Assembly: GCA_000002445.1 (NCBI GenBank)
Contig: CP000070.1
Location: 800,001-864,000 of the forward strand
DNA: 64,000 nt
Direction of reading: 5' to 3'
DNA from: Trypanosoma brucei
Lineage: Eukaryota
Shown: piece by piece, positions 16,901 to 64,000 of the stretch
How positions within the stretch are numbered: the first letter of the stretch is position 1
Layout: the number at the start of each line of letters is the position of its first letter
Program-made: the position numbers and the translations under genes
The notes under the pieces: model-generated
Seen by the model: only the letters and a program-made list of their open reading frames with translations
What the model was told of the DNA's origin: nothing
Database searches by the model: none

Positions 16901-17789
16901 CGGAGCAGAACGGTGTAAAGAGGAGCCTGTTTCGGTAATGGTCGACAGGGAATATGCCTTTGCAATGGAACGCCTTCATGAGGTTCTTGATGACCTACAG
17001 GTGGTAGAAAACATTTGCTGCGGAACAGGTAAACCAACGGCAGATCAGCGTGCTCTCATCGACTGGCTGTTAAAGGACCAAATCCCGCCGATGTGGGCAC
17101 GGTCCTATTCTTCTCACACAGCAGTGGCAGAACAGTGGATGATAGATTTTGCGCGTCGGGTTTCTCATGCTTTATATCTACGCGGGGCCATACAGAGGGA
17201 GTCGGGTGGCGCTGTATGCCTCAACCTCGGTCTTCTTTTCTGGCCTGAGGCCTTCGTTACTACAACGAAGCAGCAGACAGCCCGCAGACAGAGTCAGCCA
17301 TTGGAGCAACTGCAAATTCAACTTGACCTCATGCCGGAGGAAGATGTGCGAGCACGAGCTGCTAAAGTTGTAAAGGAGGATGATGTCTGGCATATTGTGG
17401 GTCTGACGCTATTTTCAGCCTCCCTCAAGAAGTGTGACACGGCTAGTGGTGGTGCCGGCTATACGTGTGTATTACTGCCTGACTCATCCACGGCACCTTC
17501 AACGCCTGTTGGGGCGGTGATGAGGTGGAGGCCGGTTGTGTTGTCGAGAACCACCACCGCACCAGACGCTGGTTGCTGTATGGCCCCTGCAGCAAAATCA
17601 TCGGTTCTGACACGGCTAGCCTCGCGTGATAAGAATTCTAATTGCCTCATTGTACCACTATACGCGAGCGATCTACGCAGAGCACTGCTGCAAGTTGTGG
17701 AACTGAGGGTGGACATTAAAAACACGCCAATGCACGCATGGTATGAACGGGGGACATGCCTTGTAGCCTGGTCGATGGAAGCCTACTAG
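1917..17789 (+). CDS. Cytoplasmic dynein heavy chain (dynein-1-like), about 5290 aa
   Basis: Single 15.9-kb ORF whose first ATG is at 1917 (the track start at 1911 is a TTG). Four AAA+ Walker A P-loops occur in order: GPAGTGKTE near nt 8464-8490, GPSGTGKT near 9376-9400, GPPGSGKT near 10800-10825 and GASGVGKT near 11841-11867. The AAA1 context LGGSPVGPAGTGKTETVKSLG...CQVGAWGCFDEFNRLEE matches cytoplasmic dynein. A long coiled-coil stalk and C-terminal domain follow. Confidence 0.95.
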   Translation: MMRQEKDKQLCLTADELLASDVVDCISSMMRSATKPQVREALQGVEHEKNGTALHLVVCEYTPTQNLNNEEAATTTCVVAAEDLTTVFFRLMATVSRGVTSPKYMGTGPMTEGSKNVDGGSSMETEGAAALPRVTRCVFITSASGGNSAEDIRNAPSSPRPAPLTLSQLNVHAMEMDQPLGDLQSLLQRVYEPVLRQRREDALRYNLQEFVNSMQCRYHFLTRVNLMQFVHPKLLTVCSVNPTADLHELVGLLHEEGDDVDLDDVFAIWSPCRNLLNVAFEADTADDGNAARPQVINLSEVVGGAPHHGSCIGDNTSRNHGNNNNGGVLEEVSYWQEVRQWINHIRRQLRSREWRLAHYLLRHRVPTSYEREYELHSKLAHSYEQHAKGVLQLLPHINDVNDITTFLVNALRIIEAAARPGAYPRKRCTHFVNCVVHNIMEQFVALADGLDVLHIQPAEKQLQKIGEMMKAIVELQRCLVDGVLSARIDQRDVEGTTVTETRNSSVAGQWCTEVKNLSGFGRCSLLLERMKQLKDFLNEHFHYYRTLAQTFAEGGGSGSTTTSFCRHLAEAYSRFTADVVERGCLWDVSPTGAGKYQRIRDSYSSRVSRIDDRLALHVGISLSNEQERDTYNVTTSTVKANTSTEAKTSDPRRPARGRVDAPTAGGSPLYRAYSCFCVFRREKVLAVLASFRTALREQIDREINDICEEYFGKESCPHIVRATVARLGVTEDVGRMLWERSLQRQLETHMERREEISEHGWRQLLLLRTLEHRWCLNESLARFFGARLQDLVVEGFAAGSEVHGTAYALAFLSLVHSKNELRWSRDPHIQSARQYLDENSPQSLEKARLRLVLLRKGSSWGSKQSEPWDVLNFRDSIAQKLNEHVERWCNIVQSKFLHVDMVEETMAMKGPFLRLSYVERGVGTAGGNSDKNNNFHRNNEGNIDGVSRGEQVLVPNIPQEMYAFLRDFYTLESVQLQEKHKQLFGNIRCFFLKNEARFRIANSFRDLTRVFEEAVGDEEELMAHLITDEYAQVYGCLVDGAKLTWLEEDKLLEFIQRLSCRVYNFCSAASSVRTAVDDVERILQQLHSQTFAAQSIVEKVEKLCGIVKQLGSEGSSREWYVQRIQPRLDAALLLQLQAHLHRWTVEFLSMGRDPRFLDPASCTEEYKLRPLRIRMRVLFKGITLATPEAACRYHWLNILNNSFAWLHAIPALHSSFRRSNHQHPTATPLFGGGSVVEVTAETVYGRLVDCLSSEVLAEPMTAIDKSIQEAFDVEKQWRRGQQLLNLEVGVLQQKLGDDLVKWEEALRHIREFADTLMNHTQPSTLLGGILIVASDAQKELGRKLDNMTQYINSRYREVVSKHLELCHRRITEERTDVEKCDVINSIDDACMFICELPTIYTKLEETGRRIAPLVAAEEYLKNQGLSLPDSGVCVKKVKEEHQAYKDLIARKVKAVELRRPFLRENAKQKGKGLQDDVAELEKSLAELDKQIQLRERQDKQHLEELADSMQERFYDIQKQILVLEKQHDRLTLLCKVLGIQPVDEVRLQSVASRTENLRWVFGHLLEVCRKLNRLSQTPFSEVDPQRLHEDIISLQAEVQEFPPGVRGHPAHNELVQLIEERLAARWIIHELSSRAMMPVVRAERHWSLLRSKLGTQWKLEELTVGDIWRSDPMTRAKIYYEVLDVARGEHRLETKLEQITAFWNNFEFNTTIYKKKHVLIRGWDAVFAQLSDDIDTLQGFHLSPFYSASHIAASVTEWESRLNLLLKVLEVLMGVQRRWVHLDGLFSSNEDIYQQLSSEGMQFDRVTWELWNLMPYRSSPFGSTETAADLENVVVRTQDFLEEKRLLSSLERVDGQLTRVQRALNRYLDRQRRLFPRFFYVGDDDLLETLGNSNNATLIAKHLPKMFTALARLIVKDMGANGQGSAGSAAADLHIVGFACEEGEEVATNRSIRLEGRALHLTLNEVEIVMTQTLRQLTVSAAASLADAGCVTTEWIEAFPLQVVCLAFQVWWAQLQEQALATWKAQQKREPSLAVSRMVSLLDQLALEVTAVGVTPSVRRASEELITLAVYQRDVSRLIELKNVTAAEDFEWMRILRLYVVAPDTYSKKGDAATDVGRPRKSGVVLANEVDYPEVHCRMADASLIHGFEYIGWYRRLVQTPLTDRCYLAMTQALHTRLGGSPVGPAGTGKTETVKSLGAQLGRHVVVFNCTDTFDFSAIGRILMGLCQVGAWGCFDEFNRLEECVLSAVAQQIRSIQEALRGDLHSVNLSRQQVPLKTNVALFITMNPDFADRSQLPGNLKQLFRTVTMVAPDREAIAEVMLFAQGFRTAESLSRKVVPLFDLCREQLSRQSHYDFGLRALKSVLVIAGEAKHADCKRNAVHVPETASSATAVEDDSNVNSRECELMLGSLINNIVPRLISEDVILFYPLLRDFFPGRPVPDVFESLLRSTIEEVCQDTHYTPTPAWVEKIYQLYRTRKTRHGLMLVGPSGTGKTSCWKTLLRVMARLSTQEGHNDFDEGDLASPSRRSRGRPLEAHAYVIDPKAMTKAELFGVFEATTREWKDGIFTDILRRIVNNSLDTNSTQQQHWIIFDGDVDPLWVENLNSLLDDSKIYTLPNGERLSLPPSVRIVFEVQDLRYATPATVSRCGMVWFSHGTVPVSCLLNRHLTTFLRAPMIDKRGGKRIVEVCDDHEEMQSRLCGGHFTLHRAAASSGTTTLASTQRELTTSDGDVRTSRENNKAHDSLTEDALNRSARNSENVPESPPPRTPHSFVSAERDILELQVFMVGVWTTAFAKGGLLERAFEIIHTERYRGQGIMEHNDLQILRSVQSLLLDGIWSMWQVREKWGALPTERVVRSYAEKLLNYAVFWGFGAALNNELRRQLLDDIGFQLLGQPRDLTLMDVEPDPVHGTWRTTRERVQPVDVDPEDVGFSDVIIPTVDACRNRTLLEAWITGGDAVILCGPPGSGKTILVTSLLRDSFTHESVFLNFSSGTRPENIIRALEQYCSVHNHAVHGPIMTPTSGKRLLLFCDEVNLPALDQYGTQPVVQFLRQLVERKGYYRSRDNVWVTVEGVQVIGACNPPTDKGRVSLSHRFLRWAPVLFVDFPTEESLHVIYSSYCRAMLSFSSRLQRYHPKCLAAAMVDVYTASQSRFNTWQQPHYVYSPRELTRWIRALRGAILSWSDQQRCELTVEELVQLAIHEGLRIFQDRLVQNEEREWAHRKVVECFARHFTDVTSSPAQPPLLFSSIVNGVYMKQTKSELVQYVEEKVRTFCEGEGDTELVVLDTMVDHVVRIDRVLRQPSGHMVLVGASGVGKTIITRLVAWMNGMSVFRIDVNRGYQLADYERDLREVLRRAGCGLERICFIFDDSNAMETGFLEYINALLPSGEIPGLFDGDKWAKLMDDIRASVEEQQSLKATSGTTQHLPRVLQHHQHEREGNELHNSARTSLFDRSSTMNRRDFGAPMTGGGYDFDRHPLLLNETAGPMLTSDYIDITSEQVLYRWFVNNVRRNLHVVFVTDPSTKEFADRVVTSPALFNRCTINWLGEWDRTTRAQLAQKLTQNMDVMFSCRESFSGSEDTSRKALTEALSAIHEATEEVNSTARQRNANSGTFITPRHFSDLLQQLKLLYEEKKGRSMEQLTHLRSGLAKLATTSEEVGQQQTQLREHEVLLDERSAKAQAMLERIVSETERTKQEKQEAEQLRQQLKEEEDLILADRARVEQQLSEAAPALREAEEGLNSIKQEYLREMRAYTTPPTMVKRVLETVLVVMGERRAGEWDVIKHYVRRDDFIASVKAFQARDVTEEAVQTVRGMLQEDGFTYEAAMRASKAAGPLLQWVTAQINYAIVYAAVQPLRSRIDQITITQGAKQAQLERTETEISTLEMSLQQLKEDYQSMAEEIATCKSTMGVIASRCDRATKLLQQLLEERDRWGAESLGFDSEVSVLLGNCILAAASLTYFGYFDEYTRQSLLLPVWVQQLKNFKIRCTEEHSSGFVDYLVTPSQRLEWEQQGLPKDNLCAENAMILHRSRRYPLLIDPSGVATAFLQKKHKDGTMRTTSFTKSDYLKQLDMAIRFGYALIIEDAEFMDPIIGPLLKNEMRRVGGRTMTRLGGREVETTSSFSLILITRDSHYQPPPGIAGRVCLVNFAVTLSSLESQCRHRLLLHERADVDEQRARVLKVREEYSVRVRVLEQELLKLIAGSEGSILENNTLTVALERLKGETKALKEGIVESDELMRSITAVEEHYKPLATAVSKVYFVLRCFSQLHGLYQYSVKFIFRVLNDALDQLPPPSNSNGAQQEEAPAEKKEEDAARLQVLTRHVFYLLYHRARRGMFAQDHLVLATALGKARSGIADPIGQQLTIEEWNLFESALGGPVASTGVSIPAESIKGADRLDQLPKILSGCRVCSPSSAAVLAELLKLPLFEQVRVSLNNPEHGEAWRAYFAAVEPYAETIPPFSRKVKNFSADDANCSSVGGSHAVGPTRRAFITALLLLHTRRDAFVPAASEFLRLFFDGADVAVGDGRGNCGESGYRAIAGHDGAKGGMGDFDSFFSAEVLDLVAIQKELTNTTPLILVANAGSDPTVSLEAVASAMNVQLHTAVMGSADSTEAAERFLTTATVDGAWVLLKNIHIDRAFADVVVRHLHRVFAGDQVHEGFRLILSMEAKAQHVVGNLGERGCGGDVINARSPLDLPVSLVESSIVVVYEPPPGMKASLLQTIGSLRAPTQQAPYSADMVRIYLTAAWFHAVVMERLLYVPLGWSTRYEINDTEFWHTLQAVNRWVMTTESTSGGNTVGDIEGNQVCSANREHFPWLALQTIIGTALYGGKLSNDFDQFLLNSFCTQLFSPIIFEDDKFFALLEGLCVNQKLRLPSMDTLNDVLAWVKSLPDPQPLRWARLPASASRLMLEKQAVAMLERLAILRFVGEKEHSGRSIVDGCAAYSEESTIPRCLTEMQWAQKVRLFCSSWRSSLERLVPAGQVVSAQSAETPSGGRSSGAERCKEEPVSVMVDREYAFAMERLHEVLDDLQVVENICCGTGKPTADQRALIDWLLKDQIPPMWARSYSSHTAVAEQWMIDFARRVSHALYLRGAIQRESGGAVCLNLGLLFWPEAFVTTTKQQTARRQSQPLEQLQIQLDLMPEEDVRARAAKVVKEDDVWHIVGLTLFSASLKKCDTASGGAGYTCVLLPDSSTAPSTPVGAVMRWRPVVLSRTTTAPDAGCCMAPAAKSSVLTRLASRDKNSNCLIVPLYASDLRRALLQVVELRVDIKNTPMHAWYERGTCLVAWSMEAY

Positions 17790-36328: not shown

Positions 36329-37990
36329 TCAAAGCATTCGCAACAATAGAACTGCGGAACAAAGTGCAGCGGCACGAACACCCGAATGTGCTGCCGGATT
36401 GGACTCCGCTCTCATGACAGGTCTTCGCGCCGGTTCTGCAGAATAGTTGGATTTCAGTCGTACCTCCTCTTGTCCCCTTGAGGTGGATTCTTCGTTCACT
36501 CTCCTCGACAACTCCAAACTGTTCAGAATCTCCCCGATCAGTTCCTCGTGAAGCTGGTCATTAGTGAGTTCTGCCTCTTTGTGCCCTATGCATTTCGTCA
36601 ATTCATCCGCGGTAGTTTTTATTTTTTCCATAACCGCATTTTTTGCTTCTTCGAAACGCGCAAACAGGCGGATGACATCCCCAAATATACTCACTTTATT
36701 GGGATCTTCAGTCCACCGCACTGCACCGTAGGAAGTGACGTCACCGTACTCTCCCCCCTTTACATTTAGTTTGCCTTCCACACTTGATGCGAAATTCATC
36801 ACTCCACCACCCCACGTGAAGCTGTGACTCAATGACCCACCTTTTAATAAACCGTCTGTTGCCGTCCTCATCAAGTTGCAACCCCTGTCTTCATTTCGTT
36901 CAATGATGCTCTCCGCACCCAAGCTACTGAAGGAAATGGATGATAGCGCTTCGTGGAGTTGCAAGTTTTTCTCTGCCGACTTCGTTACATGTGAATCCTC
37001 GATTTTGTAAAGGGTTTCAGGTCCAATTGTTCCACGAAAACATTCTTGCAACTTGTCGTGCACCGCTGGCCTGCTCCCTCCCACGCTTATGCAAAACTGC
37101 GACGTCGTGCGTGCCGCCTGTGCAAATGCAAAAATCCACTCTTCCAGTCTTCCGGCTGCTAACCCAGCGGCGGCTGCTGCTAGCGCCGATGCATTCCTCA
37201 TTTCCTCTAACTCCTGCTGGAATGTAAACTCATTCTTCAATACTGTTTTCAAGAGTGTCCTGATGTCTTTACAATCTTTCTCACTAGAAGGTACGCTGTT
37301 TCGCATTACCGATAACTGCAACTGCGCGCTTTTGATCTTCAAATCTGACAGTTTCTTCATAACCGCAGCACTCCCGCTGTTTACTCTGTGTGCTACCCCT
37401 TTAAGATATGTCGATAACTCACACACTTTATTAGCGGCTGTCGCGTTTAGTGCATTCCTTTCATAATAATTTGCACGTGTTTCTTTTCCCAACAGCGCCA
37501 ACAGCACGAACCAAAACCTCATTTTGTTCTCTTTATTTAATTATACTTGAGCTTTCACCTTCGTTACTGAGTAAAAACTAAATCACTCGTGCTATTCTTG
37601 ACACAGATTACCATTGTGGTGACAGTCCGGGAGAATACATTCTCAGTCCCATTTTGCTTTGTCCTACCAAACTCTCATTATAATAAACACCACTGCCTCA
37701 CACGCGTAGGTAGCAGCTACGTCCCCCCAACACACACACACACACACAACATTCCCCTCAATTGCTCACTTGAAAACAAATAGCAACAGTAATAACACAC
37801 ACACCGCAACAAATTGTACCTCAAATACTTGTTTCCTTCCCTACATCCGAACCATCTTATCCAGCCTCCACTCGACACAGTGTTTTGAAGGGAATAAAAA
37901 CCACTTCCAGGATATTGCTAACCAACAACCCTCCTTCTCGTTAATTAACGCCCTTTTCAACCGATTCTCTTTCGGTGTAGATGATACCGA
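35773..37990. repeat. Copy A of a roughly 2.2-kb tandem duplication carrying the surface-protein gene and its flanks
   Basis: 35773-37990 and 38158-40373 are near-identical by direct reading, apart from one replaced segment of about 80-90 bp and a 1-bp difference in a C-run. They are separated by a unique spacer of about 167 bp (37991-38157). Confidence 0.9.
36329..37522 (-). CDS. GPI-anchored, alanine-rich, predicted helical surface protein resembling the VSG / haptoglobin-hemoglobin-receptor (HpHbR/GARP-type) group; copy A, intact
   Basis: 397 aa. Has an N-terminal signal peptide (MRFWFVLLALLGKETRA), six spaced Cys, Ala-rich helical segments and N-glycosylation sequons. The C-terminus is ..AAHS|GVRAAALCSAVLLLRML, a Ser followed by a 17-residue hydrophobic GPI signal. 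Family assignment is inferred from architecture only. Confidence 0.7.
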   Translation of the reverse strand: MRFWFVLLALLGKETRANYYERNALNATAANKVCELSTYLKGVAHRVNSGSAAVMKKLSDLKIKSAQLQLSVMRNSVPSSEKDCKDIRTLLKTVLKNEFTFQQELEEMRNASALAAAAAGLAAGRLEEWIFAFAQAARTTSQFCISVGGSRPAVHDKLQECFRGTIGPETLYKIEDSHVTKSAEKNLQLHEALSSISFSSLGAESIIERNEDRGCNLMRTATDGLLKGGSLSHSFTWGGGVMNFASSVEGKLNVKGGEYGDVTSYGAVRWTEDPNKVSIFGDVIRLFARFEEAKNAVMEKIKTTADELTKCIGHKEAELTNDQLHEELIGEILNSLELSRRVNEESTSRGQEEVRLKSNYSAEPARRPVMRAESNPAAHSGVRAAALCSAVLLLRML

Positions 37991-38157: not shown

Positions 38158-40373
38158 ATAAACTAGGACCACCATTTGCAAAAATGGATCGCCCAAAGGA
38201 CGAACAGCTTCGACCCAGCTTGCGGGTGGGTTAGGATAGTTGCAATTCCTTCTTTTGGACTATCATCTAAAGCGTACTAAAACAAAGATTCGGGAGAAGT
38301 GAAAACCCACGTCGTGACAGGTCGTTATTAACCTTAACTCTACAACTGTCGTTGCCTTAACCAGTAGGGTTAGTCCTGTCTCCTTTTATGGTTGGCATTA
38401 TTCGCTTCTTCTTTTGTTGGGTAGCTAAATTTAAAAAAAAAATCTCCGGAGTTTAGCGCAGTTGGTTATTACAGTTTTCCTTTACACCCCGCTCCATTTA
38501 ATTCGATTTCCTAGTGTCCGGGTGTCGCCTGCCGAACGTGCATCTGTCCCTAGCTCTCCCCCCCCCTCTCGCTGGAAACCTATGTTAGTCTCATCCCCTT
38601 ATCCCCTCCCCCGAAATGTGTTTTTATTCTCTCTTTTTCCTTCCCCCTCCGTAACATTAATCAACAATACGAAGCAGGACGGTTTCGGCGGTAACATTCC
38701 CTTCAAAGCATTCGCAACAATAGAACTGCGGAACAAAGTGCAGCGGCACGAACACCCGAATGTGCTGCCGGATTGGACTCCGCTCTCATGACAGGTCTTC
38801 GCGCCGGTTCTGCAGAATAGTTGGATTTCAGTCGTACCTCCTGTCACTTTATTCCTAACCGCCCAAACCCCGCACTGAGGTCCCACTTCACAGCAACTCC
38901 AGATAGTTTTGTATCGCCTTGAATTGCCGTTCGTGAAGCTGGTCATTAGTGAGTTCTGCCTCTTTGTGCCCTATGCATTTCGTCAATTCATCCGCGGTAG
39001 TTTTTATTTTTTCCATAACCGCATTTTTTGCTTCTTCGAAACGCGCAAACAGGCGGATGACATCCCCAAATATACTCACTTTATTGGGATCTTCAGTCCA
39101 CCGCACTGCACCGTAGGAAGTGACGTCACCGTACTCTCCCCCCTTTACATTTAGTTTGCCTTCCACACTTGATGCGAAATTCATCACTCCACCACCCCAC
39201 GTGAAGCTGTGACTCAATGACCCACCTTTTAATAAACCGTCTGTTGCCGTCCTCATCAAGTTGCAACCCCTGTCTTCATTTCGTTCAATGATGCTCTCCG
39301 CACCCAAGCTACTGAAGGAAATGGATGATAGCGCTTCGTGGAGTTGCAAGTTTTTCTCTGCCGACTTCGTTACATGTGAATCCTCGATTTTGTAAAGGGT
39401 TTCAGGTCCAATTGTTCCACGAAAACATTCTTGCAACTTGTCGTGCACCGCTGGCCTGCTCCCTCCCACGCTTATGCAAAACTGCGACGTCGTGCGTGCC
39501 GCCTGTGCAAATGCAAAAATCCACTCTTCCAGTCTTCCGGCTGCTAACCCAGCGGCGGCTGCTGCTAGCGCCGATGCATTCCTCATTTCCTCTAACTCCT
39601 GCTGGAATGTAAACTCATTCTTCAATACTGTTTTCAAGAGTGTCCTGATGTCTTTACAATCTTTCTCACTAGAAGGTACGCTGTTTCGCATTACCGATAA
39701 CTGCAACTGCGCGCTTTTGATCTTCAAATCTGACAGTTTCTTCATAACCGCAGCACTCCCGCTGTTTACTCTGTGTGCTACCCCTTTAAGATATGTCGAT
39801 AACTCACACACTTTATTAGCGGCTGTCGCGTTTAGTGCATTCCTTTCATAATAATTTGCACGTGTTTCTTTTCCCAACAGCGCCAACAGCACGAACCAAA
39901 ACCTCATTTTGTTCTCTTTATTTAATTATACTTGAGCTTTCACCTTCGTTACTGAGTAAAAACTAAATCACTCGTGCTATTCTTGACACAGATTACCATT
40001 GTGGTGACAGTCCGGGAGAATACATTCTCAGTCCCATTTTGCTTTGTCCTACCAAACTCTCATTATAATAAACACCACTGCCTCACACGCGTAGGTAGCA
40101 GCTACGTCCCCCCAACACACACACACACACACAACATTCCCCTCAATTGCTCACTTGAAAACAAATAGCAACAGTAATAACACACACACCGCAACAAATT
40201 GTACCTCAAATACTTGTTTCCTTCCCTACATCCGAACCATCTTATCCAGCCTCCACTCGACACAGTGTTTTGAAGGGAATAAAAACCACTTCCAGGATAT
40301 TGCTAACCAACAACCCTCCTTCTCGTTAATTAACGCCCTTTTCAACCGATTCTCTTTCGGTGTAGATGATACC
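38158..40373. repeat. Copy B of the roughly 2.2-kb tandem duplication
   Basis: Same alignment as copy A. Similarity ends at about 40373, where gatgataccg is followed by cgactacc rather than the atcatccc that follows it in copy A (about 37990). Confidence 0.9.
38888..39907 (-). CDS. Copy B of the surface-protein gene: same first 324 codons, then a divergent 3' segment that terminates early (..DQLHERQFKAIQNYLELL*) and lacks the GPI signal; possible pseudogene or soluble variant
   Basis: Identical to copy A from the ATG through ..LTNDQLHE. The copy-A segment at 36480-36557 is replaced in copy B by unrelated sequence at about 38869-38957, which gives a stop at 38888. The GPI-signal coding sequence is still present and intact downstream of the stop, at about 38705-38868, but is untranslated. 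Confidence 0.5.
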   Translation of the reverse strand: MRFWFVLLALLGKETRANYYERNALNATAANKVCELSTYLKGVAHRVNSGSAAVMKKLSDLKIKSAQLQLSVMRNSVPSSEKDCKDIRTLLKTVLKNEFTFQQELEEMRNASALAAAAAGLAAGRLEEWIFAFAQAARTTSQFCISVGGSRPAVHDKLQECFRGTIGPETLYKIEDSHVTKSAEKNLQLHEALSSISFSSLGAESIIERNEDRGCNLMRTATDGLLKGGSLSHSFTWGGGVMNFASSVEGKLNVKGGEYGDVTSYGAVRWTEDPNKVSIFGDVIRLFARFEEAKNAVMEKIKTTADELTKCIGHKEAELTNDQLHERQFKAIQNYLELL

Positions 40374-55889: not shown

Positions 55890-56294
55890 TCAACCAAATG
55901 TATTTTCCACACCATACGACACGTACAGAAAGCCATCAGGGTCTTTTGCCCTTGCGTAAATGTCTCCCAAGCAGGCACTGTTCGGCGGTAGTTCATTTCC
56001 TATAAACACAAATACGGCTTGACCCTCTTCTAGCAGCAGCCGCTGCCGCAGCGCCATCATGAACTCCATAACGGTAGCAGTTTCAGGGAGAAGAAACTTA
56101 TTACAGTCCAGCTCGCGCTGCACCTGCTGCCGTGTGGAGAAGAGCCTCACATCACGCGGTGTAGAGGCGCTAGCGGCTGAAGTGGGCTCGCAAAGGATGG
56201 GAATGTGTTTGGGGTAGCGCAAGCGCGCGGATTCTGTTTCCTTCGCGCGTTCAGCAAAACTACGTGTGTACTGGTACCGGTAGTGTGAAGGCAT
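55890..56294 (-). CDS. ATG8: ATG8-family ubiquitin-like autophagy protein (ATG8/ATG12-like), about 134 aa with an internal insertion of about 20 aa and a native C-terminal Gly
   Basis: Aligns to ATG8/GABARAP across the fold: ..SFAERAKETESARLRYPKHIPILCE.., LDCNKFLLPETATVMEFMMALRQRL.LEEGQAVFVFIGNELPPNSACLGDIY....DGFLYVSYGVENTFG*. Internal ATG at 56294. Confidence 0.8.
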   Translation of the reverse strand: MPSHYRYQYTRSFAERAKETESARLRYPKHIPILCEPTSAASASTPRDVRLFSTRQQVQRELDCNKFLLPETATVMEFMMALRQRLLLEEGQAVFVFIGNELPPNSACLGDIYARAKDPDGFLYVSYGVENTFG

Positions 56295-58887
56295 AAATGT
56301 AATGACTGTGAAACTGGTACCTCTGCAGCCCCGTAATACAGTCACTGATACTACTATTCACTTGCAATACGAAGCTCACCTTTCTTCCTTCTCCCCTTTG
56401 CCTATAATGACACACACAAAACGCACACGCGGTCCCTTGATATCTAACAACTCCCGCCAACGCCTACAAGGCTCTAATGCTCTTCGACTAGACGGTGTTT
56501 AGGGCAATGAAACGGAGGAAGGGGAACAAGCACAGATTATACCTTGTAGAGAAAGCTGCACAAACATGTTCGTATGGTCTGAAACGATAGGGAGAACAGC
56601 CAAAGCAGCTCCAAAGGGAAGGGTAGCGATGCTATTTTCTTATGCACACGCAAGAACGTGCACATGTAACGCACTCGGGTATACGTCACACAGTTTTTCT
56701 TCCGAAACGACGGGATGACCAAAGAAGAGGAGAAAGACATTCCGTCACGATGACGCCGCTGTCACCTACTTTCAAACCACTCCAAGAATGGGCAAACTAG
56801 GAACCACTACACGAACCTGCTGGTCTCAGCATTTAAAAAAAAAAAAACATCGCAGCGCATCCCCTCCCCGAGTTTCAAAGTAATCCGTGTTGCAGCCGTC
56901 ATATGCTTTCACGTTACCTTCGTATTCACCTATACCTGGTAGCGCACGCAATCGTAAGATCCGTGAAAACACACATACGACACCTTACCAGACACTGCAC
57001 GAGTCAACACAATGGCTTCCTTGTAAGCATCTAAGCACCTAAACGAACGGACATGTATTTATATTTTTTTTTATACCTACAGAACACACAAGTCAACATC
57101 AACTGCTTCACGTGTGTGTGTGTGTGTGTGTCTATGGAGGGAGCGACGACAACGATGAATAAAGAAGGAAAAAAGTTTAAGTCCACAAAAGAAAGTTTAA
57201 GTCGGAGGCCTCCACTGACACCGTTGGCTCAGCAGAGAAAGGGGTGGAGAAGGAGGAGGAATGGGTAAATGAGAGATGTAAAAAAGATCGTGACACCAAT
57301 GAAGTTATAAAAAGAGACCAGAGACGGAATACCTTGGACGCAGACCGTGTCAACATACCAACAAAAACAATTTTAAAAACAAAAAAATGAAGGTATTCTT
57401 GCCAATGAAAAGGGAGAGAACAGTGCGAAAACAGTCAACAGACAAGCACTTGGTATTCACGGACAGTGCAGAGACATTAGAGCGACCCCATCAACCGAAG
57501 GAAAAAAAAGAGAAATAGAAAAAGGGAGGCAACCGCGCGATGATCACAAAACAAAAAAAAATCTTACTCCCTCTCTCTGTTTTACAGCTTTTTCTTCTAT
57601 TTCCTATGCCCTCAGAAGCTGATCGTAGTGGTATAAATAATATACGAACAGTTAAAATGGGAAAAGGAGGAGAGTTACTTACTTTCCTCTCATCCTTCGT
57701 TTTGCTGTCGTTCCTTCTTCACTTGTGTTTCTCCCCATACGAAGCTTTCCAAACTACTTCTAAACCTTTCTCCTCGTCGTTGGCCACCGTCCGAAATTAC
57801 TTGGAAAAGAACAGCGACAAAAAAAAAATCACATATACACATACATACGTATGGACAAACGCTGGGGAAAGAGTGGCAAAAAGAAAAAAAGAAAGAAAAG
57901 TGCGACCAAAAAAAGGAAAACAAAAACCGTGGAATAAAAGCGAGACTGGGTCGCAGAACCGCGTGATATCCGCTGCCGAATATAAAACCCCTCCTTCCCC
58001 TTCGTATCAACACCTAATCGTAACTGTTAACGGTTAGGATGTTGAAAGCTTGCGAGGAAACCTGCGCGTGTGGGGTGGCATTATCTAGTAAAGGAAAAGA
58101 GTTGGGTCAACCGCAAATGCATACGTCTTATTTTTGTTGTTGTTGTTAAAGGGAAAACGGGGTTTACGCAATGAAAAAAAAATGCATACATGCGGGTGCC
58201 CACGCAGCTACTCCGTGCAGTATCGGGCAACATGGGAACGGCAGGAATGGAAAGACGCCAACCCCGTCGATACACCGTGCACTAAAAAGTGCAGTTCATC
58301 CGTAACGACAACAAGCAACAGTAAGGCAGCAGGAGCGTTAAACGCCACCATCACGGAAAAGAAGATTGCCGCCGCGTGCAAGTGGTTTGCACGACAGTAA
58401 CCCGGGAGCTTGCTGCTGCATTGGCACATGACCCTCTAAAAGAAAACAAAAACTTAACCCTCCTGTTATAGGCTCACAGAGGCTCGGTGGGCCGAAAAAT
58501 GGGGGGAATGCAAACCAAGAGACGAAAGGGAAAGACGTATATAAAGGAAAAAACGGCCGCTTCTGCCGCAGCTGCTACTCTGCGGCATCAACTATTTCAT
58601 TTGCAGTGTCTCAATGACACCTTAACTCACCGTTTTTCCTGAACTTTCTGTTTACTCTTTTTGTTCTTCCCCCGTAAATTGGATTCCCCTATAACGTGAA
58701 GACCTCCCTCCCCTCCGGTAAATACATCTTTCCTACCCCCCCCCACGCAGCTGCTTTCGCTGCACCAAACACTCCATCCACTAGCAAAGCTCTATTGAAA
58801 CAAAAATATTCGTTACATTAGACATCATTCATCGACTGTAACCTAGGTAGTGTATGAGATACCGTATCAATTACACACTGAGTGTCA

Positions 58888-61800
58888 TCAATGGTGCGCC
58901 CATGGCCCTCCCAAATGCGTTGTTGGGCAACCGGTTGCGTCGCCCTCGTCCTCATCGTCTTCACCTTCCTCAACAGAGCGCAAAAGCGATATCTCACGCA
59001 AAAGCTCCTTTGCACTCGTGGCAGAAACCTGACAACCACGAATGCGCGAGTCCAGATCCGTCATCAGTCCACCTATGTTGCGATTTAGCTCATCCACCAC
59101 ATCGTCGTGTTGTCTCCCTTTAGACTGTAATTCGACCATAAGTGCCTCTTTTTCACGCTTCAAACGCTCAAGCTGATGGCGCATCGAGCTAATGATATCT
59201 GTCCCACCCACGGCCAGATTGCTTGCAGACGGTACAGTCACCGCTGAGGTGGTGGAATTGCCAGTCTCTCCGAGATGCTCTGACGATGTCCAGGGGAGGG
59301 GAACGGGCATACCACCCTGTAGTTCCTCGATTCTGGCCTCCAGTTGTTGCATGACTGCCTCCACCTCACGCATCTCGTCGTCCTTAGCGTCTTGCAGGTC
59401 AAAGAGTTCCTGTTCACGGGCCTCCAGGGCCATCAACGCCGCCTTCTCCGCTGCTCGGGCTCCTTCAAGGACATTAACAAACTCATCGAGTTTACCAATG
59501 GTGTCAGTGTATTCAAACCCCTTCTCGTCCAACTCAAGCAACAGTGCAGCAATTTTTCTGTTAAGTGCATCAAGATCCTCTTTGTGAGTGATCTCCCGCT
59601 GTTCTAACTCTTCCCTCAGGGCAGCGTTCTCTTCGCTAAGTTTCTTAACCTCCTGTTCAAGTTCACCTACGAGATAAACGCCACTCATTAACTCTTCAAC
59701 CTTTCCACGGGCCACCTCCACGTGCGAACTTCGTGCCTTTTCAAGCATGTTGAACAGTGAGAGAAGCATCTCGTCACGGAACTTTTTGTCCCTATCTTGG
59801 GTGCAACGAAGTTCAAGTAACTCTTCCTCACGGGCAAAAAGCTCACTGCGCACCGTGCACTCAGCCTGACGAGCCTCATCCAATAGTACGACCATCTCCT
59901 CCATATTCTCCAGCATTTCGGTGTGTTCTGTGGCCCGCTCCTCAAGTTCGTCAAGTAAGTCACCTTCACGTTTCGCGCGAATACGGTCACGGTTGAGGAA
60001 CCCAACGACCAATAAGCACTGCAGCGAAGACAAAGAAGAGCGTTCAATAACCAAACGAGACAAGACCTCATCAACGAAAACACCCTGCTCATCAACCATG
60101 ACACCGCAGGCACGCCGCAAGAATGAAGACATCGTCAAATTGCCGCCACCAGCATCGTTAGTCCCAATACTACTGCCCAAAAGCAGCCGCTGCGTTTCCC
60201 TGAATGGGTAATGCTGAAGCCGTTGAGCAATTTCCGAAGGATGAATGCTTGAAGGATGGGTGACATCAAATTCAACCACACGACCACTCGGAGTGAACGT
60301 TACATTACTCACACAATCCCTGTAGACACGACATGCATTAGCAGCATCAACAACAACAGCACAACGTAACTCTTCCGGTTTATTCTTCAGCAACTCATCT
60401 AACCTCTCACCTTGAAGTTGAACACACTGAGAACTTACCATGCAATCTCCCTCCATCGAAGCCATCCACCGAGAATCATGTTTGCGCTCCTCCTCGCCGC
60501 CACGCGAAGGCTCATTCAACGCTTCCTCTAAGTCGTCCAGAGCGTTCGACATCAACACAGAAGGGCGATCATTGTGCGAAGAAGCGTCCACCACATCGAC
60601 ACCACTCCTCAGTTTTTTCAAAGCATCTACAGCTTTACGAAGCCCATCGCTCTGAGATACCAATTCATTGGTCTTGCGCTCATTCACAGCCTGCAGTTCC
60701 ATCACCTGCTCCTCCATATCACGAAGTCGTCTTTGTTGCTTGTCCAACTCATCTACCCTCAGTTCATCAGTGCCCCGCAATTGTTCATTCTGTGTCAGAA
60801 ATTCTTTCAGACGGTCACCAAGTTCCTGAAGTAGTTCGCCCTGAACAACAAGTTCATGAGATTTAATATCAAGTTCCTTCCGCAACTCGTCGTTTTCCGA
60901 AGATATCTCAGAGAGCTTCAGACGCAATTCCTTCACATCAGATAAAAGACATTCGATTTCTTTAGAATTTTCATCATCAACACTACGGAGATCGATATTT
61001 TCCCGCTTCACAAGAATCAACTCATTTTTGATAACACCAATACCATCACCGTCACCAGAAACATCCACATCAGCACTCTTCTCCTTCAAAAGATATTCAC
61101 CATCAGAATCAATTTTCATAGCACCGTCCTTCGCATCCCGAGAAACATCACGATCATCATTACGTAAAGAAAAAAGTTCGTTACTTCGTCTCAGTTCCTC
61201 ATTCTCAGTGCGTAGTTCAGCAAGTTGCTCCTCCATCTCATGAAGTTTCTCATTCTGCACATCAAGTTCACGTGCCTTGTCCCCTTCAGTATTGCGAAGC
61301 TCCTCATTCTCAGCGCGTAGTTCAGCAAGTTGCTCTTCCATCTCATGAAGTTTCTCATTCTGCACATCAAGTTCACGTGCCTTGTCACCATCAGTATTGC
61401 GAAGCTCCTCATTTTCAGCGCGTAGTTCAGCAAGTTGCTCCTCCATCTCATGAAGTTTCTCATTCTGCACATCAAGTTCACGTGCCTTGTCACCATCAGT
61501 ATTGCGAAGCTCCTCATTTTCAGCGCGTAGTTCGGCAAGTTGCTCCTCCATCTCATGAAGTTTCTCATTCTGCACATCAAGTTCACGTGCCTTGTCACCA
61601 TCAGTATTGCGAAGCTCCTCATTTTCAGCGCGTAGTTCAGCAAGTTGCTCCTCCATCTCATGAAGTTTCTCATTCTGCACATCAAGTTCACGTGCCTTGT
61701 CACCATCAGTATTGCGAAGCTCCTCATTTTCAGCGCGTAGTTCAGCAAGTTGCTCCTCCATCTCATGAAGTTTCTCATTCTGCACATCAAGTTCACGTGC

Positions 61801-64000
61801 CTTGTCACCATCAGTATTGCGAAGCTCCTCATTTTCAGCGCGTAGTTCGGCAAGTTGCTCCTCCATCTCATGAAGTTTCTCATTCTGCACATCAAGTTCA
61901 CGTGCCTTGTCACCATCAGTATTGCGAAGCTCCTCATTTTCAGCGCGTAGTTCAGCAAGTTGCTCCTCCATCTCATGAAGTTTCTCATTCTGCACATCAA
62001 GTTCACGTGCCTTGTCACCATCAGTATTGCGAAGCTCCTCATTTTCAGCGCGTAGTTCAGCAAGTTGCTCCTCCATCTCATGAAGTTTCTCATTCTGCAC
62101 ATCAAGTTCACGTGCCTTGTCACCATCAGTATTGCGAAGCTCCTCATTTTCAGCGCGTAGTTCAGCAAGTTGCTCCTCCATCTCATGAAGTTTCTCATTC
62201 TGCACATCAAGTTCACGTGCCTTGTCCCCTTCAGTATTGCGAAGCTCCTCATTTTCAGCGCGTAGTTCAGCAAGTTGCTCCTCCATCTCATGAAGTTTCT
62301 CATTCTGCACATCAAGTTCACGTGCCTTGTCACCATCAGTATTGCGAAGCTCCTCATTTTCAGCGCGTAGTTCAGCAAGTTGCTCCTCCATCTCATGAAG
62401 TTTCTCATTCTGCACATCAAGTTCACGTGCCTTGTCACCATCAGTATTGCGAAGCTCCTCATTTTCAGCGCGTAGTTCAGCAAGTTGCTCTTCCATCTCA
62501 TGAAGTTTCTCATTCTGTACATCAAGTTCACGTGCCTTGTCACCTTCAGTATTGCGAAGCTCCTCATTCTCAGCGCGTAGTTCAGCAAGTTGCTCCTCCA
62601 TCTCATGAAGTTTCTCATTCTGTACATCAAGTTCACGTGCCTTGTCACCATCAGTATTGCGAAGCTCCTCATTCTCAGCGCGTAGTTCAGCAAGTTGCTC
62701 CTCCATCTCATGAAGTTTCTCATTCTGCACATCAAGTTCACGTGCCTTGTCACCATCAGTATTGCGAAGCTCCTCATTTTCAGCGCGTAGTTCAGCAAGT
62801 TGCTCCTCCATCTCATGAAGTTTCTCATTCTGCACATCAAGTTCACGTGCCTTGTCACCATCAGTATTGCGAAGCTCCTCATTCTCAGCGCGTAGTTCAG
62901 CAAGTTGCTCCTCCATCTCATGAAGTTTCTCATTCTGCACATCAAGTTCACGTGCCTTGTCACCATCAGTATTGCGAAGCTCCTCATTCTCAGCGCGTAG
63001 TTCAGCAAGTTGCTCCTCCATCTCATGAAGTTTCTCATTCTGTACATCAAGTTCACGTGCCTTGTCACCATCAGTATTGCGAAGCTCCTCATTCTCAGCG
63101 CGTAGTTCAGCAAGTTGCTCTTCCATCTCATGAAGTTTCTCATTCTGCACATCAAGTTCACGTGCCTTGTCACCATCAGTATTGCGAAGCTCCTCATTCT
63201 CAGCGCGTAGTTCAGCAAGTTGCTCCTCCATCTCATGAAGTTTCTCGTTCTGCACATCAAGTTCACGTGCCTTGTCACCATCAGTATTGCGAAGCTCCTC
63301 ATTTTCAGCGCGTAGTTCAGCAAGTTGCTCCTCCATCTCATGAAGTTTCTCATTCTGCACATCAAGTTCACGTGCCTTGTCACCATCAGTATTGCGAAGC
63401 TCCTCATTCTCAGCGCGTAGTTCAGCAAGTTGCTCCTCCATCTCATGAAGTTTCTCATTCTGCACATCAAGTTCACGTGCCTTGTCCCCTTCAGTATTGC
63501 GAAGCTCCTCATTCTCAGTGCGTAGTCCATTTATCTTCTGTTCAAGTTCTTTTTGTAGGTAGAGAAGTTGCTGATTTCTTACTTCTAGTTCTCTTAATTT
63601 AGCGTGCTGCTCCTCTCGTATTCCTGTATTTTCGGTGCGCACTTCTCGGAGTTGTTCAACTAGTTCTTGGACTCTTCCTGATTGGACGCATAGATCGAGT
63701 GACTTTTCCACTTCGTGTTCGCGTAGCTGTTCGTTTTCTTTTTGTAGTTCGTTGGCATCTTGCTGTAGTTGTCGTAGTTGTGAATTTAGCTCCTCTATTT
63801 GATTTGTTTTACTGTTACAAATTTGCTGGAGATTGCTGTGAGATTCAGATAAAGTTCTCATCTGCCGATGTACATCCTGTATGTATTCGCTCTGCTTTTT
63901 TGCATCTACAGATATAATTTCATTATTTTTACAGAGTTCCTCATTTTCCCTAGCCAGAGTATTTAATTGGTTCTCTACAGCAGTTAGCCGCGCCTGTTGT
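58888..64000 (-). CDS. Giant coiled-coil protein with about 22 tandem 35-aa repeats (consensus ..NTDGDKARELDVQNEKLHEMEEQLAELRAENEELR..); its 5' end lies beyond the window
   Basis: Stop at 58888. The reading frame stays open through the ATG at 63861 and on to nt 64000; I checked the codons upstream of 63861 by hand. The protein is heptad-rich and E/K/L/R-dominated throughout, with a short non-coiled segment near DAANACRVYRDCVSNVTFTPSG. Confidence 0.85.
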   Translation of the reverse strand, partial: QQARLTAVENQLNTLARENEELCKNNEIISVDAKKQSEYIQDVHRQMRTLSESHSNLQQICNSKTNQIEELNSQLRQLQQDANELQKENEQLREHEVEKSLDLCVQSGRVQELVEQLREVRTENTGIREEQHAKLRELEVRNQQLLYLQKELEQKINGLRTENEELRNTEGDKARELDVQNEKLHEMEEQLAELRAENEELRNTDGDKARELDVQNEKLHEMEEQLAELRAENEELRNTDGDKARELDVQNEKLHEMEEQLAELRAENEELRNTDGDKARELDVQNEKLHEMEEQLAELRAENEELRNTDGDKARELDVQNEKLHEMEEQLAELRAENEELRNTDGDKARELDVQNEKLHEMEEQLAELRAENEELRNTDGDKARELDVQNEKLHEMEEQLAELRAENEELRNTDGDKARELDVQNEKLHEMEEQLAELRAENEELRNTDGDKARELDVQNEKLHEMEEQLAELRAENEELRNTEGDKARELDVQNEKLHEMEEQLAELRAENEELRNTDGDKARELDVQNEKLHEMEEQLAELRAENEELRNTDGDKARELDVQNEKLHEMEEQLAELRAENEELRNTEGDKARELDVQNEKLHEMEEQLAELRAENEELRNTDGDKARELDVQNEKLHEMEEQLAELRAENEELRNTDGDKARELDVQNEKLHEMEEQLAELRAENEELRNTDGDKARELDVQNEKLHEMEEQLAELRAENEELRNTDGDKARELDVQNEKLHEMEEQLAELRAENEELRNTDGDKARELDVQNEKLHEMEEQLAELRAENEELRNTDGDKARELDVQNEKLHEMEEQLAELRAENEELRNTDGDKARELDVQNEKLHEMEEQLAELRAENEELRNTDGDKARELDVQNEKLHEMEEQLAELRAENEELRNTEGDKARELDVQNEKLHEMEEQLAELRTENEELRRSNELFSLRNDDRDVSRDAKDGAMKIDSDGEYLLKEKSADVDVSGDGDGIGVIKNELILVKRENIDLRSVDDENSKEIECLLSDVKELRLKLSEISSENDELRKELDIKSHELVVQGELLQELGDRLKEFLTQNEQLRGTDELRVDELDKQQRRLRDMEEQVMELQAVNERKTNELVSQSDGLRKAVDALKKLRSGVDVVDASSHNDRPSVLMSNALDDLEEALNEPSRGGEEERKHDSRWMASMEGDCMVSSQCVQLQGERLDELLKNKPEELRCAVVVDAANACRVYRDCVSNVTFTPSGRVVEFDVTHPSSIHPSEIAQRLQHYPFRETQRLLLGSSIGTNDAGGGNLTMSSFLRRACGVMVDEQGVFVDEVLSRLVIERSSLSSLQCLLVVGFLNRDRIRAKREGDLLDELEERATEHTEMLENMEEMVVLLDEARQAECTVRSELFAREEELLELRCTQDRDKKFRDEMLLSLFNMLEKARSSHVEVARGKVEELMSGVYLVGELEQEVKKLSEENAALREELEQREITHKEDLDALNRKIAALLLELDEKGFEYTDTIGKLDEFVNVLEGARAAEKAALMALEAREQELFDLQDAKDDEMREVEAVMQQLEARIEELQGGMPVPLPWTSSEHLGETGNSTTSAVTVPSASNLAVGGTDIISSMRHQLERLKREKEALMVELQSKGRQHDDVVDELNRNIGGLMTDLDSRIRGCQVSATSAKELLREISLLRSVEEGEDDEDEGDATGCPTTHLGGPWAHH
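61195..63530. repeat. Tandem array of about 22 x 105-bp near-identical repeats, the coding repeats of the coiled-coil gene
   Basis: Measured period is 105 bp: cttgtcacca recurs at 61381 and 61486. Units differ at only a few positions, such as gtcccct vs gtcacca, cattctc vs cattttc, ttcagcaag vs ttcggcaag and ctgcac vs ctgtac. The array is open in all three frames, which produces the artefactual 776-aa plus-strand and 779-aa minus-strand ORFs. Confidence 0.95.

What the first reader, a model, noticed from the sequence alone, without database searches (positions are those of the whole stretch)
58888..64000. Giant coiled-coil protein with a highly homogenised array of 22 x 35-aa repeats
The repeats are almost identical at the nucleotide level over 2.3 kb, which indicates concerted evolution by unequal crossing-over. 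The few variant positions recur in a patchy pattern that may reveal higher-order repeat structure. In trypanosomatids, tandem-repeat proteins of this acidic, amphipathic coiled-coil type are typically cytoskeleton- or flagellum-associated and are strongly immunodominant B-cell antigens, which makes them serodiagnostic candidates. The copy number seen here is probably a lower bound, because arrays of identical repeats tend to collapse in assemblies. The gene continues past the window edge.
Basis: partly seen in the sequence, partly recalled or inferred. Interest (0 to 1): 0.6.

Follow-up and report, generated by a model that had tools for sequence, protein, structure and literature searches.

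The report
Known trypanosome flagellum-attachment protein FAZ10

Summary
There are 22 in-frame copies of a 105-bp (35-aa) unit at 61198..63507, with mean pairwise identity 98.2%. They sit in a minus-strand frame that is open from the stop at 58888 to the window edge.

The gene is FAZ10 (Tb927.7.3330, chromosome 7) of Trypanosoma brucei. Four primers published for Tb927.7.3330 match with zero mismatches, and the tagging pair abuts exactly at the stop codon. The next gene downstream is an ATG8-family gene, fitting ATG8.3 (Tb927.7.3320). The literature describes FAZ10 as 4334 aa with 52 near-identical 35-aa repeats in two coiled-coil domains. The window holds the second array and the C-terminal region.

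My first call, FAZ1, rested on the Pfam FAZ1_cons hit and automatic names. It was wrong and I dropped it.

- **Strand:** settled. Seven of eight variable sites are third codon positions in this frame only.
- **Gene extent:** two other T. brucei-group assemblies show the ORF continuing upstream of the window edge.
- **Copy number:** the same array has 13, 22 or 37 units in three assemblies.
- **Higher-order repeat:** no periodic pattern was found.
- **Antigenicity:** untested.

Novelty: already known.

The parts
58888..64000 (-). 3' 5.1 kb (last 1703 codons plus stop) of FAZ10 / Tb927.7.3330. By bookkeeping, the first complete codon in the window is residue 2632 of the 4334-aa annotated protein.
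   Evidence: Open frame. Published Tb927.7.3330 primers match with 0 mismatches. 4334-1703+1 = 2632 = P2576+55+1 (preprint 10.64898/2026.05.05.722045).
63508..63999 (-). Pre-array linker of 164 aa, helical and coiled-coil-like. It contains degenerate 35-aa units at 63730..63834 and 63625..63729.
   Evidence: Unit-similarity scores are 49 and 67 against a shuffled-unit maximum of 44.
61198..63507 (-). Second repeat array of FAZ10: 22 x 105 bp = 22 x 35 aa (770 aa, 91 kDa, pI 4.4).
60679..60993 (-). Three contiguous degenerate 35-aa units downstream of the array, with 9-18 of 35 residues identical to the unit.
   Evidence: Scores are 54, 60 and 85 against a shuffled-unit maximum of 44.
60181..60438 (-). 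FAZ1_cons domain (Pfam PF23398), a small alpha/beta globular domain followed by a long helix.
   Evidence: 80.9 bits, cut-off 27.5. AF2 model (domain pLDDT 78-91). Conserved in orthologues.
58891..61197 (-). Non-repeat C-terminal region, 769 aa. The last 250 aa are the published anti-FAZ10 immunogen.
58801..58888 (+). Start of the 3' UTR. It matches the published reverse in-situ tagging primer for Tb927.7.3330.
   Evidence: 88/88 nt.

Best explanation
The region is the 3' part of FAZ10 (Tb927.7.3330) of Trypanosoma brucei, most likely the TREU927 reference chromosome 7. [quoted passage not shown] The window holds the linker after the central region, the second of its two arrays of near-identical 35-aa repeats (22 units), and the 769-aa C-terminal region with a FAZ1_cons globular domain.

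Published, not tested here:
- The protein lies in a punctate pattern along the FAZ.
- Its knock-down causes flagellum detachment and misplaced cleavage furrows.
- Its central region is a parallel dimeric coiled coil.

Inferred here:
- Each 35-aa unit is exactly five heptads, so one a/d register runs unbroken through all 22 units.
- Leu/Met fill 6 of the 10 core positions.
- A polar N-T-D-G-D patch recurs every 5.2 nm as a weak point.
- The array therefore most likely forms a long, acidic, segmented two-stranded rod. It would be about 114 nm long if continuous, and it spaces the globular FAZ1_cons modules.

At the DNA level, unequal exchange or gene conversion keeps the array homogeneous and changes its copy number between strains. 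Purifying selection holds the peptide constant.
For: **Identity**
- The in-situ tagging primers Tb927.7.3330F/R and the RNAi primers printed in PMC3313915 match the window with 0 mismatches.
- The positions are 58891..58980(-), 58801..58888(+), 59914..59933(-) and 59520..59539(+).
- The forward primer ends at the last sense codon and the reverse primer starts at the stop.
- The next gene downstream (55890..56345, -) is ATG8-family, consistent with ATG8.3 = Tb927.7.3320.
- FAZ10 is described as a 13,005-bp ORF of 4334 aa with 52 near-identical 35-aa repeats in two coiled-coil domains.
- Residue bookkeeping fits exactly.
- Pfam FAZ1_cons scores 80.9 bits.
- Orthologues exist in T. equiperdum, T. 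vivax and T. theileri.

**Coding strand**
- Seven of 8 variable sites are third codon positions and 6 are synonymous.
- Eight nucleotide unit types give 2 peptide types in this frame, but 8 in each of the other two stop-free frames.

**Structure**
- One heptad register stands out, with 6/10 core positions strongly hydrophobic.
- The AF2 monomer of 211 aa is all helix (pLDDT 84), with breaks only at N-T-D.

**Turnover**
- The array has 22, 37 and 13 units in three assemblies, which share the same variant unit types in different orders.
- Degenerate units flank the array.
Against: - The coiled-coil state of the repeats themselves has not been shown.
- The 2026 preprint's IUPred analysis scores the two repeat regions as 87-97% disordered.
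- The unit is very acidic, with 12 D/E against 5 K/R.
- Four of 10 core positions are polar.
- The AF2 model is a single-sequence monomer, so it cannot show pairing.
- The upstream 7.9 kb of the gene is not in the window, so the two-array layout rests on the literature and on other assemblies.
- The figure of 22 may not be the true copy number of the sequenced strain.
Confidence: 0.93

Rival explanations
1. The gene is FAZ1 (Tb927.4.3740), the FAZ filament protein recognised by monoclonal antibody L3B2. This was my own first call.
For: Pfam names the domain FAZ1_cons. Source names of the orthologues begin 'Flagellar attachment zone...'. The size from the first ATG, 191.7 kDa, resembles the 193 kDa listed for FAZ1.
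Against: - FAZ1 is reported to carry 14-residue repeats. Here self-identity is 0.99 at lag 35 and only 0.08 at lag 14.
- The primers published for Tb927.7.3330 match perfectly.
- The frame is open upstream of the first ATG and continues in other assemblies.
- The neighbour is an ATG8-family gene, fitting chromosome-7 ATG8.3.
- The domain is shared by several FAZ proteins, listed as PFAMB506 for FAZ1, 4, 6, 8 and 10, so it does not single out FAZ1.
Confidence: 0.01
2. The repeat is read on the plus strand, or is a non-coding satellite. The long minus-strand frame would then be an accident of a stop-free unit.
For: Two other stop-free ORFs span the array: 61272..63602 (+), 776 aa, and 61191..63530 (-), 779 aa.
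Against: - Both rival ORFs end within about 100 nt of the array.
- The FAZ10 frame runs 2.3 kb beyond it into a conserved, Pfam-recognised C-terminus and 0.5 kb upstream.
- Sequence variants are silent only in the FAZ10 frame.
- FAZ10 protein has been detected by mass spectrometry, antibody and C-terminal tagging.
Confidence: 0.005
3. The array as written is an assembly product, and its true length in the sequenced strain differs from 22 units. It could be collapsed or, less likely, inflated.
For: - The 2.3 kb of 98% identical units is longer than a Sanger read.
- The T. equiperdum OVI contig breaks inside the gene, 0.7 kb from the array.
- Other assemblies give 13 and 37 units.
- The 37-unit array includes 104-nt units that break the frame.
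- The protein runs at about 2 MDa against 502 kDa predicted.
Against: - The array is present in three independent assemblies, so it is not a one- or two-unit duplication artefact.
- Ten distinct unit types in a non-periodic order argue that real, distinct copies were assembled.
- Accounting for 2 MDa by repeats alone would need roughly 360 extra 4.1-kDa units. This is my arithmetic, and giant acidic proteins commonly migrate anomalously.
Confidence: 0.4
4. The repeat array is not a paired coiled coil. It would instead be a largely disordered or single-alpha-helix acidic spring between globular modules.
For: - IUPred scores the repeat regions as 87-97% disordered.
- The unit has a net charge of about -7.
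- Four of 10 core positions are polar.
- A Gly-containing NTDGD patch recurs in every unit.
Against: - The exact five-heptad period gives one clearly best register with Leu/Met at a/d.
- COILS predicts coiled coil.
- The adjoining central region is experimentally a parallel dimer, which would hold the two arrays in register.
- There are too few K/R residues for a classical E-R/K single helix.
- IUPred is known to score charged coiled coils as disordered (my own knowledge).
Confidence: 0.2

Closest known systems
FAZ10 (Tb927.7.3330), Trypanosoma brucei; Moreira et al. 2017, J Cell Sci (PMC5358337)
   Same: It is this gene. The 3' end, 3' UTR and RNAi amplicon are identical to the published primers. 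It has the 35-aa near-identical repeats, the C-terminal region and an ATG8-family gene as chromosomal neighbour.
   Different: Nothing of substance. Only the last 39% of the ORF is in the window.
FAZ1 (Tb927.4.3740), FAZ filament protein
   Same: A large repetitive FAZ protein, listed with the same conserved domain (PFAMB506, called FAZ1_cons in Pfam). It runs as a doublet attributed to allelic repeat-number variation.
   Different: It lies on chromosome 4, has 14-residue repeats and is about 193 kDa. It is a different gene.
ClpGM6 (T. brucei) / H49 calpain-like proteins (T. cruzi)
   Same: Giant FAZ-associated proteins with long arrays of near-identical repeats. GM6 and H49 are proven B-cell and serodiagnostic antigens (PMC3808341, PMC3214072).
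   Different: They have 68-aa repeats, calpain-like domains and a flagellar-side location. Antigenicity is shown for them, not for FAZ10.
Orthologous FAZ10 proteins of T. vivax (P0003), T. theileri (P0004) and an unnamed Trypanosoma (P0002)
   Same: The C-terminal region is conserved (44-66% identity in the aligned 266 aa), with the FAZ1_cons domain and an upstream repeat array.
   Different: Repeat units differ. T. vivax has 28 aa (four heptads). P0002 has 39 aa with two roughly alternating variants. T. brucei has 35 aa.
NUP-1, trypanosome lamin-like protein
   Same: A very large repeat-built coiled-coil scaffold. Tb927.7.3330 was tagged alongside it in the same study (PMC3313915).
   Different: It is located in the nuclear periphery and has an unrelated sequence.

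Membership tests
FAZ10 (Tb927.7.3330) | The sequence of the 3' end of the ORF and the start of the 3' UTR, as used for published in-situ tagging of Tb927.7.3330. | tested here: met
   90/90 and 88/88 nt match, abutting at the stop codon.
FAZ10 (Tb927.7.3330) | The published RNAi amplicon primers lie inside the ORF. | tested here: met
   20/20 nt each, at 59914..59933(-) and 59520..59539(+).
FAZ10 (Tb927.7.3330) | Nearly identical 35-aa repeats within coiled-coil domains. | tested here: met
   22 units with 0.99 self-identity at lag 35. Literature description.
FAZ10 (Tb927.7.3330) | Chromosome 7 position next to Tb927.7.3320 (ATG8.3). | tested here: met
   An ATG8-family ORF lies directly downstream. 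The gene ID comes from PMC5349162. The same gene order is seen in T. b. gambiense chromosome 7 record FN554970.
FAZ10 (Tb927.7.3330) | Full 13,005-bp ORF with N-terminal region, two arrays (52 units in total) and a central region. | tested here: inconclusive
   Only 5.1 kb is in the window. The ORF continues upstream in L002 and L003, and the residue bookkeeping fits 4334 aa. The first array was not seen for this strain.
FAZ10 (Tb927.7.3330) | Localisation to the flagellum attachment zone, and the detachment and furrow phenotype on knock-down. | not testable with these tools
   Published in PMC5358337.
FAZ1_cons domain proteins (Pfam PF23398) | Match to the Pfam model above the gathering score. 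| tested here: met
   80.9 bits against 27.5, residues 1188-1273 of the window ORF.
FAZ1 (Tb927.4.3740) | 14-residue repeat and chromosome 4 locus. | tested here: not met
   Lag-14 identity is 0.08 against 0.99 at lag 35. The primers and neighbour place the gene on chromosome 7.
Two-stranded alpha-helical coiled coil | Heptad periodicity with hydrophobic a/d positions, and predicted helix. | tested here: met
   35 = 5 x 7. One register has 6/10 Leu/Met at a/d. The AF2 model is all-helical.
Two-stranded alpha-helical coiled coil | Demonstrated oligomerisation of the repeat region. | not testable with these tools
   Shown only for the neighbouring central region, in preprint 10.64898/2026.05.05.722045.
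Trypanosomatid tandem-repeat B-cell antigens | Recognition of the repeat by sera from infected hosts. | not testable with these tools
   No held paper reports it for FAZ10. It is shown for GM6 and H49.

The most novel reading that the evidence does not exclude
The length of the homogenised array acts as a physical spacer in the FAZ. Twenty-two units would make a rod of about 114 nm, close to the roughly 122-nm spacing of the junctional staples where FAZ10 is seen. The 13/22/37-unit differences between T. brucei-group genomes would then be real and would change staple geometry, or would be compensated by the other array. A related possibility is that the true arrays are much longer than in any assembly.
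Probability: 0.08. Interest if true: 0.5.

Novelty: already known. Interest (0 to 1): 0.1.

Why it matters
It matters little as a discovery. FAZ10 has been named, localised, knocked down and partly modelled. The check is still useful in three ways.

1. It shows that a domain name (FAZ1_cons) and automatic protein names can point to the wrong paralogue.
2. It documents that the second FAZ10 array differs in copy number (13, 22, 37) among T. brucei-group assemblies. The annotated 502-kDa size should therefore not be taken at face value.
3. It shows that the repeat is exactly five heptads with a recurrent polar break. That is a concrete starting point for testing whether the repeats pair as a coiled coil.

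The serodiagnostic idea remains open and is cheap to test.

Tried and rejected
1. **FAZ1 assignment.** From I first called the gene FAZ1. I even placed the window next to the chromosome-4 centromere using PMC1868937. I rejected this when two papers gave FAZ1 a 14-aa repeat. The FAZ10 description and primers then matched. The centromere remark is void.
2. **N-terminal homology search.** The 160 N-terminal residues found nothing.
3. **Exact-product look-up.** The 1657-aa ATG-started product found nothing. This fits that ATG not being the real start.
4. **Residue numbers in the prazosin paper.** V1637 and H1641 could not be mapped. They belong to FAZ1.
5. **Higher-order repeat test.** Mean unit difference by lag against 5000 permutations gave only lags 1 and 3 at P of about 0.03, uncorrected for 11 lags. 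I rejected a periodic pattern.
7. **Vaughan et al. 2008** is not held.
8. **tRNA scan** of the window found none.

Full report

Yes. Tandem Repeats Finder reports a single array at 61196..63526. It has period 105 bp, 22.2 copies, 98% matches and no indels. It is the only substantial tandem array in the window.

Translating the minus strand from 63999 gives 1703 codons without a stop, ending at the stop codon 58888..58890. In that frame the motif ELRNT recurs 22 times at exactly 35-aa spacing. The unit is ELRNTDGDKARELDVQNEKLHEMEEQLAELRAENE, and the array occupies 61198..63507.

The 22 units differ at only 8 nucleotide sites. There are 10 unit types. Mean pairwise identity is 98.2%.

**2. Which strand, and is it coding?**

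Three stop-free frames cross the array. Two of them end within about 100 nt of it: 61272..63602 on the plus strand and 61191..63530 on the minus strand. The third continues 2.3 kb downstream and 0.5 kb upstream to the window edge.

Seven of the 8 variable sites are third codon positions of that long frame. The chance of this for one given codon position is 0.0026. Six are synonymous. The two amino-acid changes are D→E in units 1, 10, 13 and 22, and A→T in unit 22.

Among 19 interior units, eight nucleotide types collapse to two peptide types in this frame. They give eight peptide types in each of the other two frames. The downstream part carries a Pfam domain and is conserved in other trypanosomes. 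The plus-strand and satellite alternatives are excluded.

**3. What gene is it?**

*A wrong turn.* The C-terminal 767 aa hit Pfam FAZ1_cons (PF23398; 80.9 bits for the whole ORF, cut-off 27.5). They also matched proteins of T. equiperdum (100% identity), T. vivax and T. theileri, whose source names begin 'Flagellar attachment zone...'. I first took this to mean FAZ1 (Tb927.4.3740).

Two papers then described FAZ1 as having a 14-residue repeat. This array has self-identity 0.99 at lag 35 and 0.08 at lag 14.

*The correct gene.* The FAZ10 paper describes Tb927.7.3330 as follows (PMC5358337):
- a 13,005-bp ORF encoding 4334 aa
- 52 nearly identical repeats of 35 aa

The decisive evidence is a set of primers for Tb927.7.3330 printed in DuBois et al. 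2012 (PMC3313915). All four match the window with no mismatch:

| Primer | Window position |
|---|---|
| Forward tagging (90 nt) | 58891..58980 (-), ending at the last sense codon |
| Reverse tagging (88 nt) | 58801..58888 (+), starting at the stop codon |
| RNAi forward | 59914..59933 (-) |
| RNAi reverse | 59520..59539 (+) |

The next gene downstream (55890..56345, -) is an ATG8-family gene. This is consistent with ATG8.3 = Tb927.7.3320 (PMC5349162). The gene is therefore FAZ10, not FAZ1. The shared domain is listed as PFAMB506 for FAZ1, FAZ4, FAZ6, FAZ8 and FAZ10 in PMC4827413. That explains the misleading names.

**4. Does it run past the window edge, and how much is missing?**

I used the exact ATG8.3 product to fetch two chromosome-scale T. 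brucei-group records:
- L002: GCA_003543875.1, record CM010678.1
- L003: T. b. gambiense DAL972, record FN554970.1

In both, the FAZ10 frame continues upstream of the residue that is first in the window. The sequence reads: a further FAZ1_cons copy, then ...RETQRLLLKLNEP, then 55 residues, then QQARLTAVE....

The 2026 preprint places the end of the central region at P2576. P2576 + 55 + 1 = 2632. Independently, 4334 - 1703 + 1 = 2632. The window therefore fits the TREU927 annotation exactly. It has 22 units in the second array, which implies 30 in the first. About 7.9 kb of the ORF lies beyond the window.

There is no pyrimidine tract in the 139 nt upstream of the first in-window ATG at 63861. 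This also argues against a start there.

**5. Copy number and repeat dynamics**

The same array has different lengths in the three assemblies:

| Assembly | Units in array 2 | Note |
|---|---|---|
| Window | 22 | |
| L002 | 37.2 (1209..5106, 98% matches) | Several 104-nt units break the frame; the gene was called in five pieces |
| L003 (T. b. gambiense) | 13 | A second array of at least 24 units lies further upstream |

The three assemblies share the same variant unit types (consensus, 99G, 45A+99G, 72A+99G). The orders and numbers differ. That is what unequal exchange or gene conversion produces.

Degenerate 35-aa units flank the array on both sides. Their scores are 49-85 against a shuffled maximum of 44. 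The homogenised array is therefore the core of an older periodic tract.

A T. equiperdum OVI contig starts inside the gene, 0.7 kb from the array. FAZ10 migrates at about 2 MDa against 502 kDa predicted. Its authors suggest more repeats than annotated and/or modification.

The number 22 cannot be verified here.

There is no periodic higher-order repeat. The 99G variant fills units 1, 3-6, 8, 9, 21 and 22, and the consensus type fills units 11-20. No lag is significant after correction.

The orthologue P0002, in contrast, shows 39-aa units of two roughly alternating variants. T. vivax has 28-aa units.

**6. How it most likely works**

Published results:
- FAZ10 is cytoskeletal.
- It is punctate along the FAZ at the staple-like junctions.
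- It is needed for flagellum attachment and for correct placement of the cleavage furrow.

Inferred here:
- The unit is exactly five heptads, so one register persists through all 770 residues.
- In that register the a/d positions are D,L,L,L,N / L,K,Q,M,L, which makes 6 of 10 strongly hydrophobic. No other register exceeds 3.
- A single-sequence AF2 model of 211 residues is entirely helical (mean pLDDT 84). Its only breaks fall at N-T-D of two of the five ELRNTDGD motifs it contains.
- I therefore favour a segmented, strongly acidic two-stranded rod (12 D/E against 5 K/R per unit). It would be about 5.2 nm per unit and about 114 nm for 22 units, with a weak point in every unit. It would connect FAZ1_cons globular modules.

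The main rival is a disordered or single-helix acidic spring. IUPred scores the repeats as 87-97% disordered.

**7. Known or new?**

Already known. The gene, its repeats, its localisation and its phenotype are published. Variation of repeat length and number among orthologues is shown in Fig. 1 of PMC5358337.

The modest additions here are:
- the exact five-heptad register
- the silent-site evidence for selection on the peptide
- the 13/22/37 copy numbers in three assemblies
- the near-identical duplicate of the FAZ1_cons block inside the gene

I found no test of it for FAZ10.

**8. Verdict**

Novelty: already known. Interest: low.

Noticed in passing
L003 about 2754..3063 versus about 5811..6120 (T. 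b. gambiense FN554970); the C-terminal copy in the window lies around 60140..60450 (-): The FAZ1_cons block occurs at least twice inside FAZ10, once at the end of the central region and once in the C-terminal region. A 310-nt stretch is 98.7% identical between the two copies (99 of 103 aa). Homogenisation therefore also acts on a non-repeat module several kb apart.
   Followed up: partly
L002 1209..5106; L003 3736..5100: The array equivalent to 61198..63507 has 37 units in GCA_003543875.1 and 13 in T. b. gambiense DAL972. Several of the 37 are 104-nt units that break the frame, and the gene was called in five pieces. The same variant unit types recur in different orders.
   Followed up: partly
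L003 1..2760 compared with L002 1..250: In T. b. gambiense an array of at least 24 units runs right up to about 85 aa before the central FAZ1_cons copy. In L002, non-repeat coiled coil precedes that copy. This is either a real structural difference of the central region or an assembly rearrangement between repeated modules. The called product is 4210 aa.
   Followed up: no
literature: preprint 10.64898/2026.05.05.722045 introduction versus PMC5358337: The preprint says each of the two repeat domains has 52 repeats. The 2017 paper says 52 are distributed over both. Only the second fits 4334 aa: 22 here plus 30 upstream, since 2 x 52 x 35 aa would leave too little for the other regions.
   Followed up: yes
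L001/L004 position 1 = window 60483: The T. equiperdum OVI contig CZPT02000619 begins inside FAZ10, 0.7 kb 3' of the array. Its annotated 517-aa 'protein' is only a C-terminal fragment. The contig is 99.1% identical to the window over 10.9 kb.
   Followed up: yes
window 36329..37522 (-) and 38888..39907 (-): Two ORFs with the Trypan_glycop (VSG A-type) domain sit at the inner end of the minus-strand gene cluster. They lie next to the convergent strand-switch at about 34-36 kb. No tRNA gene was found there or anywhere else in the window.
   Followed up: no
window 1911..17789 (+): A 5292-aa ORF is a dynein heavy chain (DHC_N1/N2, AAA_6-9 and MT stalk domains). It is followed by a metallo-beta-lactamase-fold protein, an AP-complex mu subunit, two protein kinases, ChaC and a WD40 protein. 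This is ordinary housekeeping context.
   Followed up: partly
P0002, P0003 (orthologues): Repeat unit length differs among species. T. vivax has 28 aa (four heptads) and T. brucei has 35 aa (five heptads). P0002 has 39 aa, which is not a multiple of seven, with two roughly alternating variants giving a pattern of about 78 aa.
   Followed up: partly
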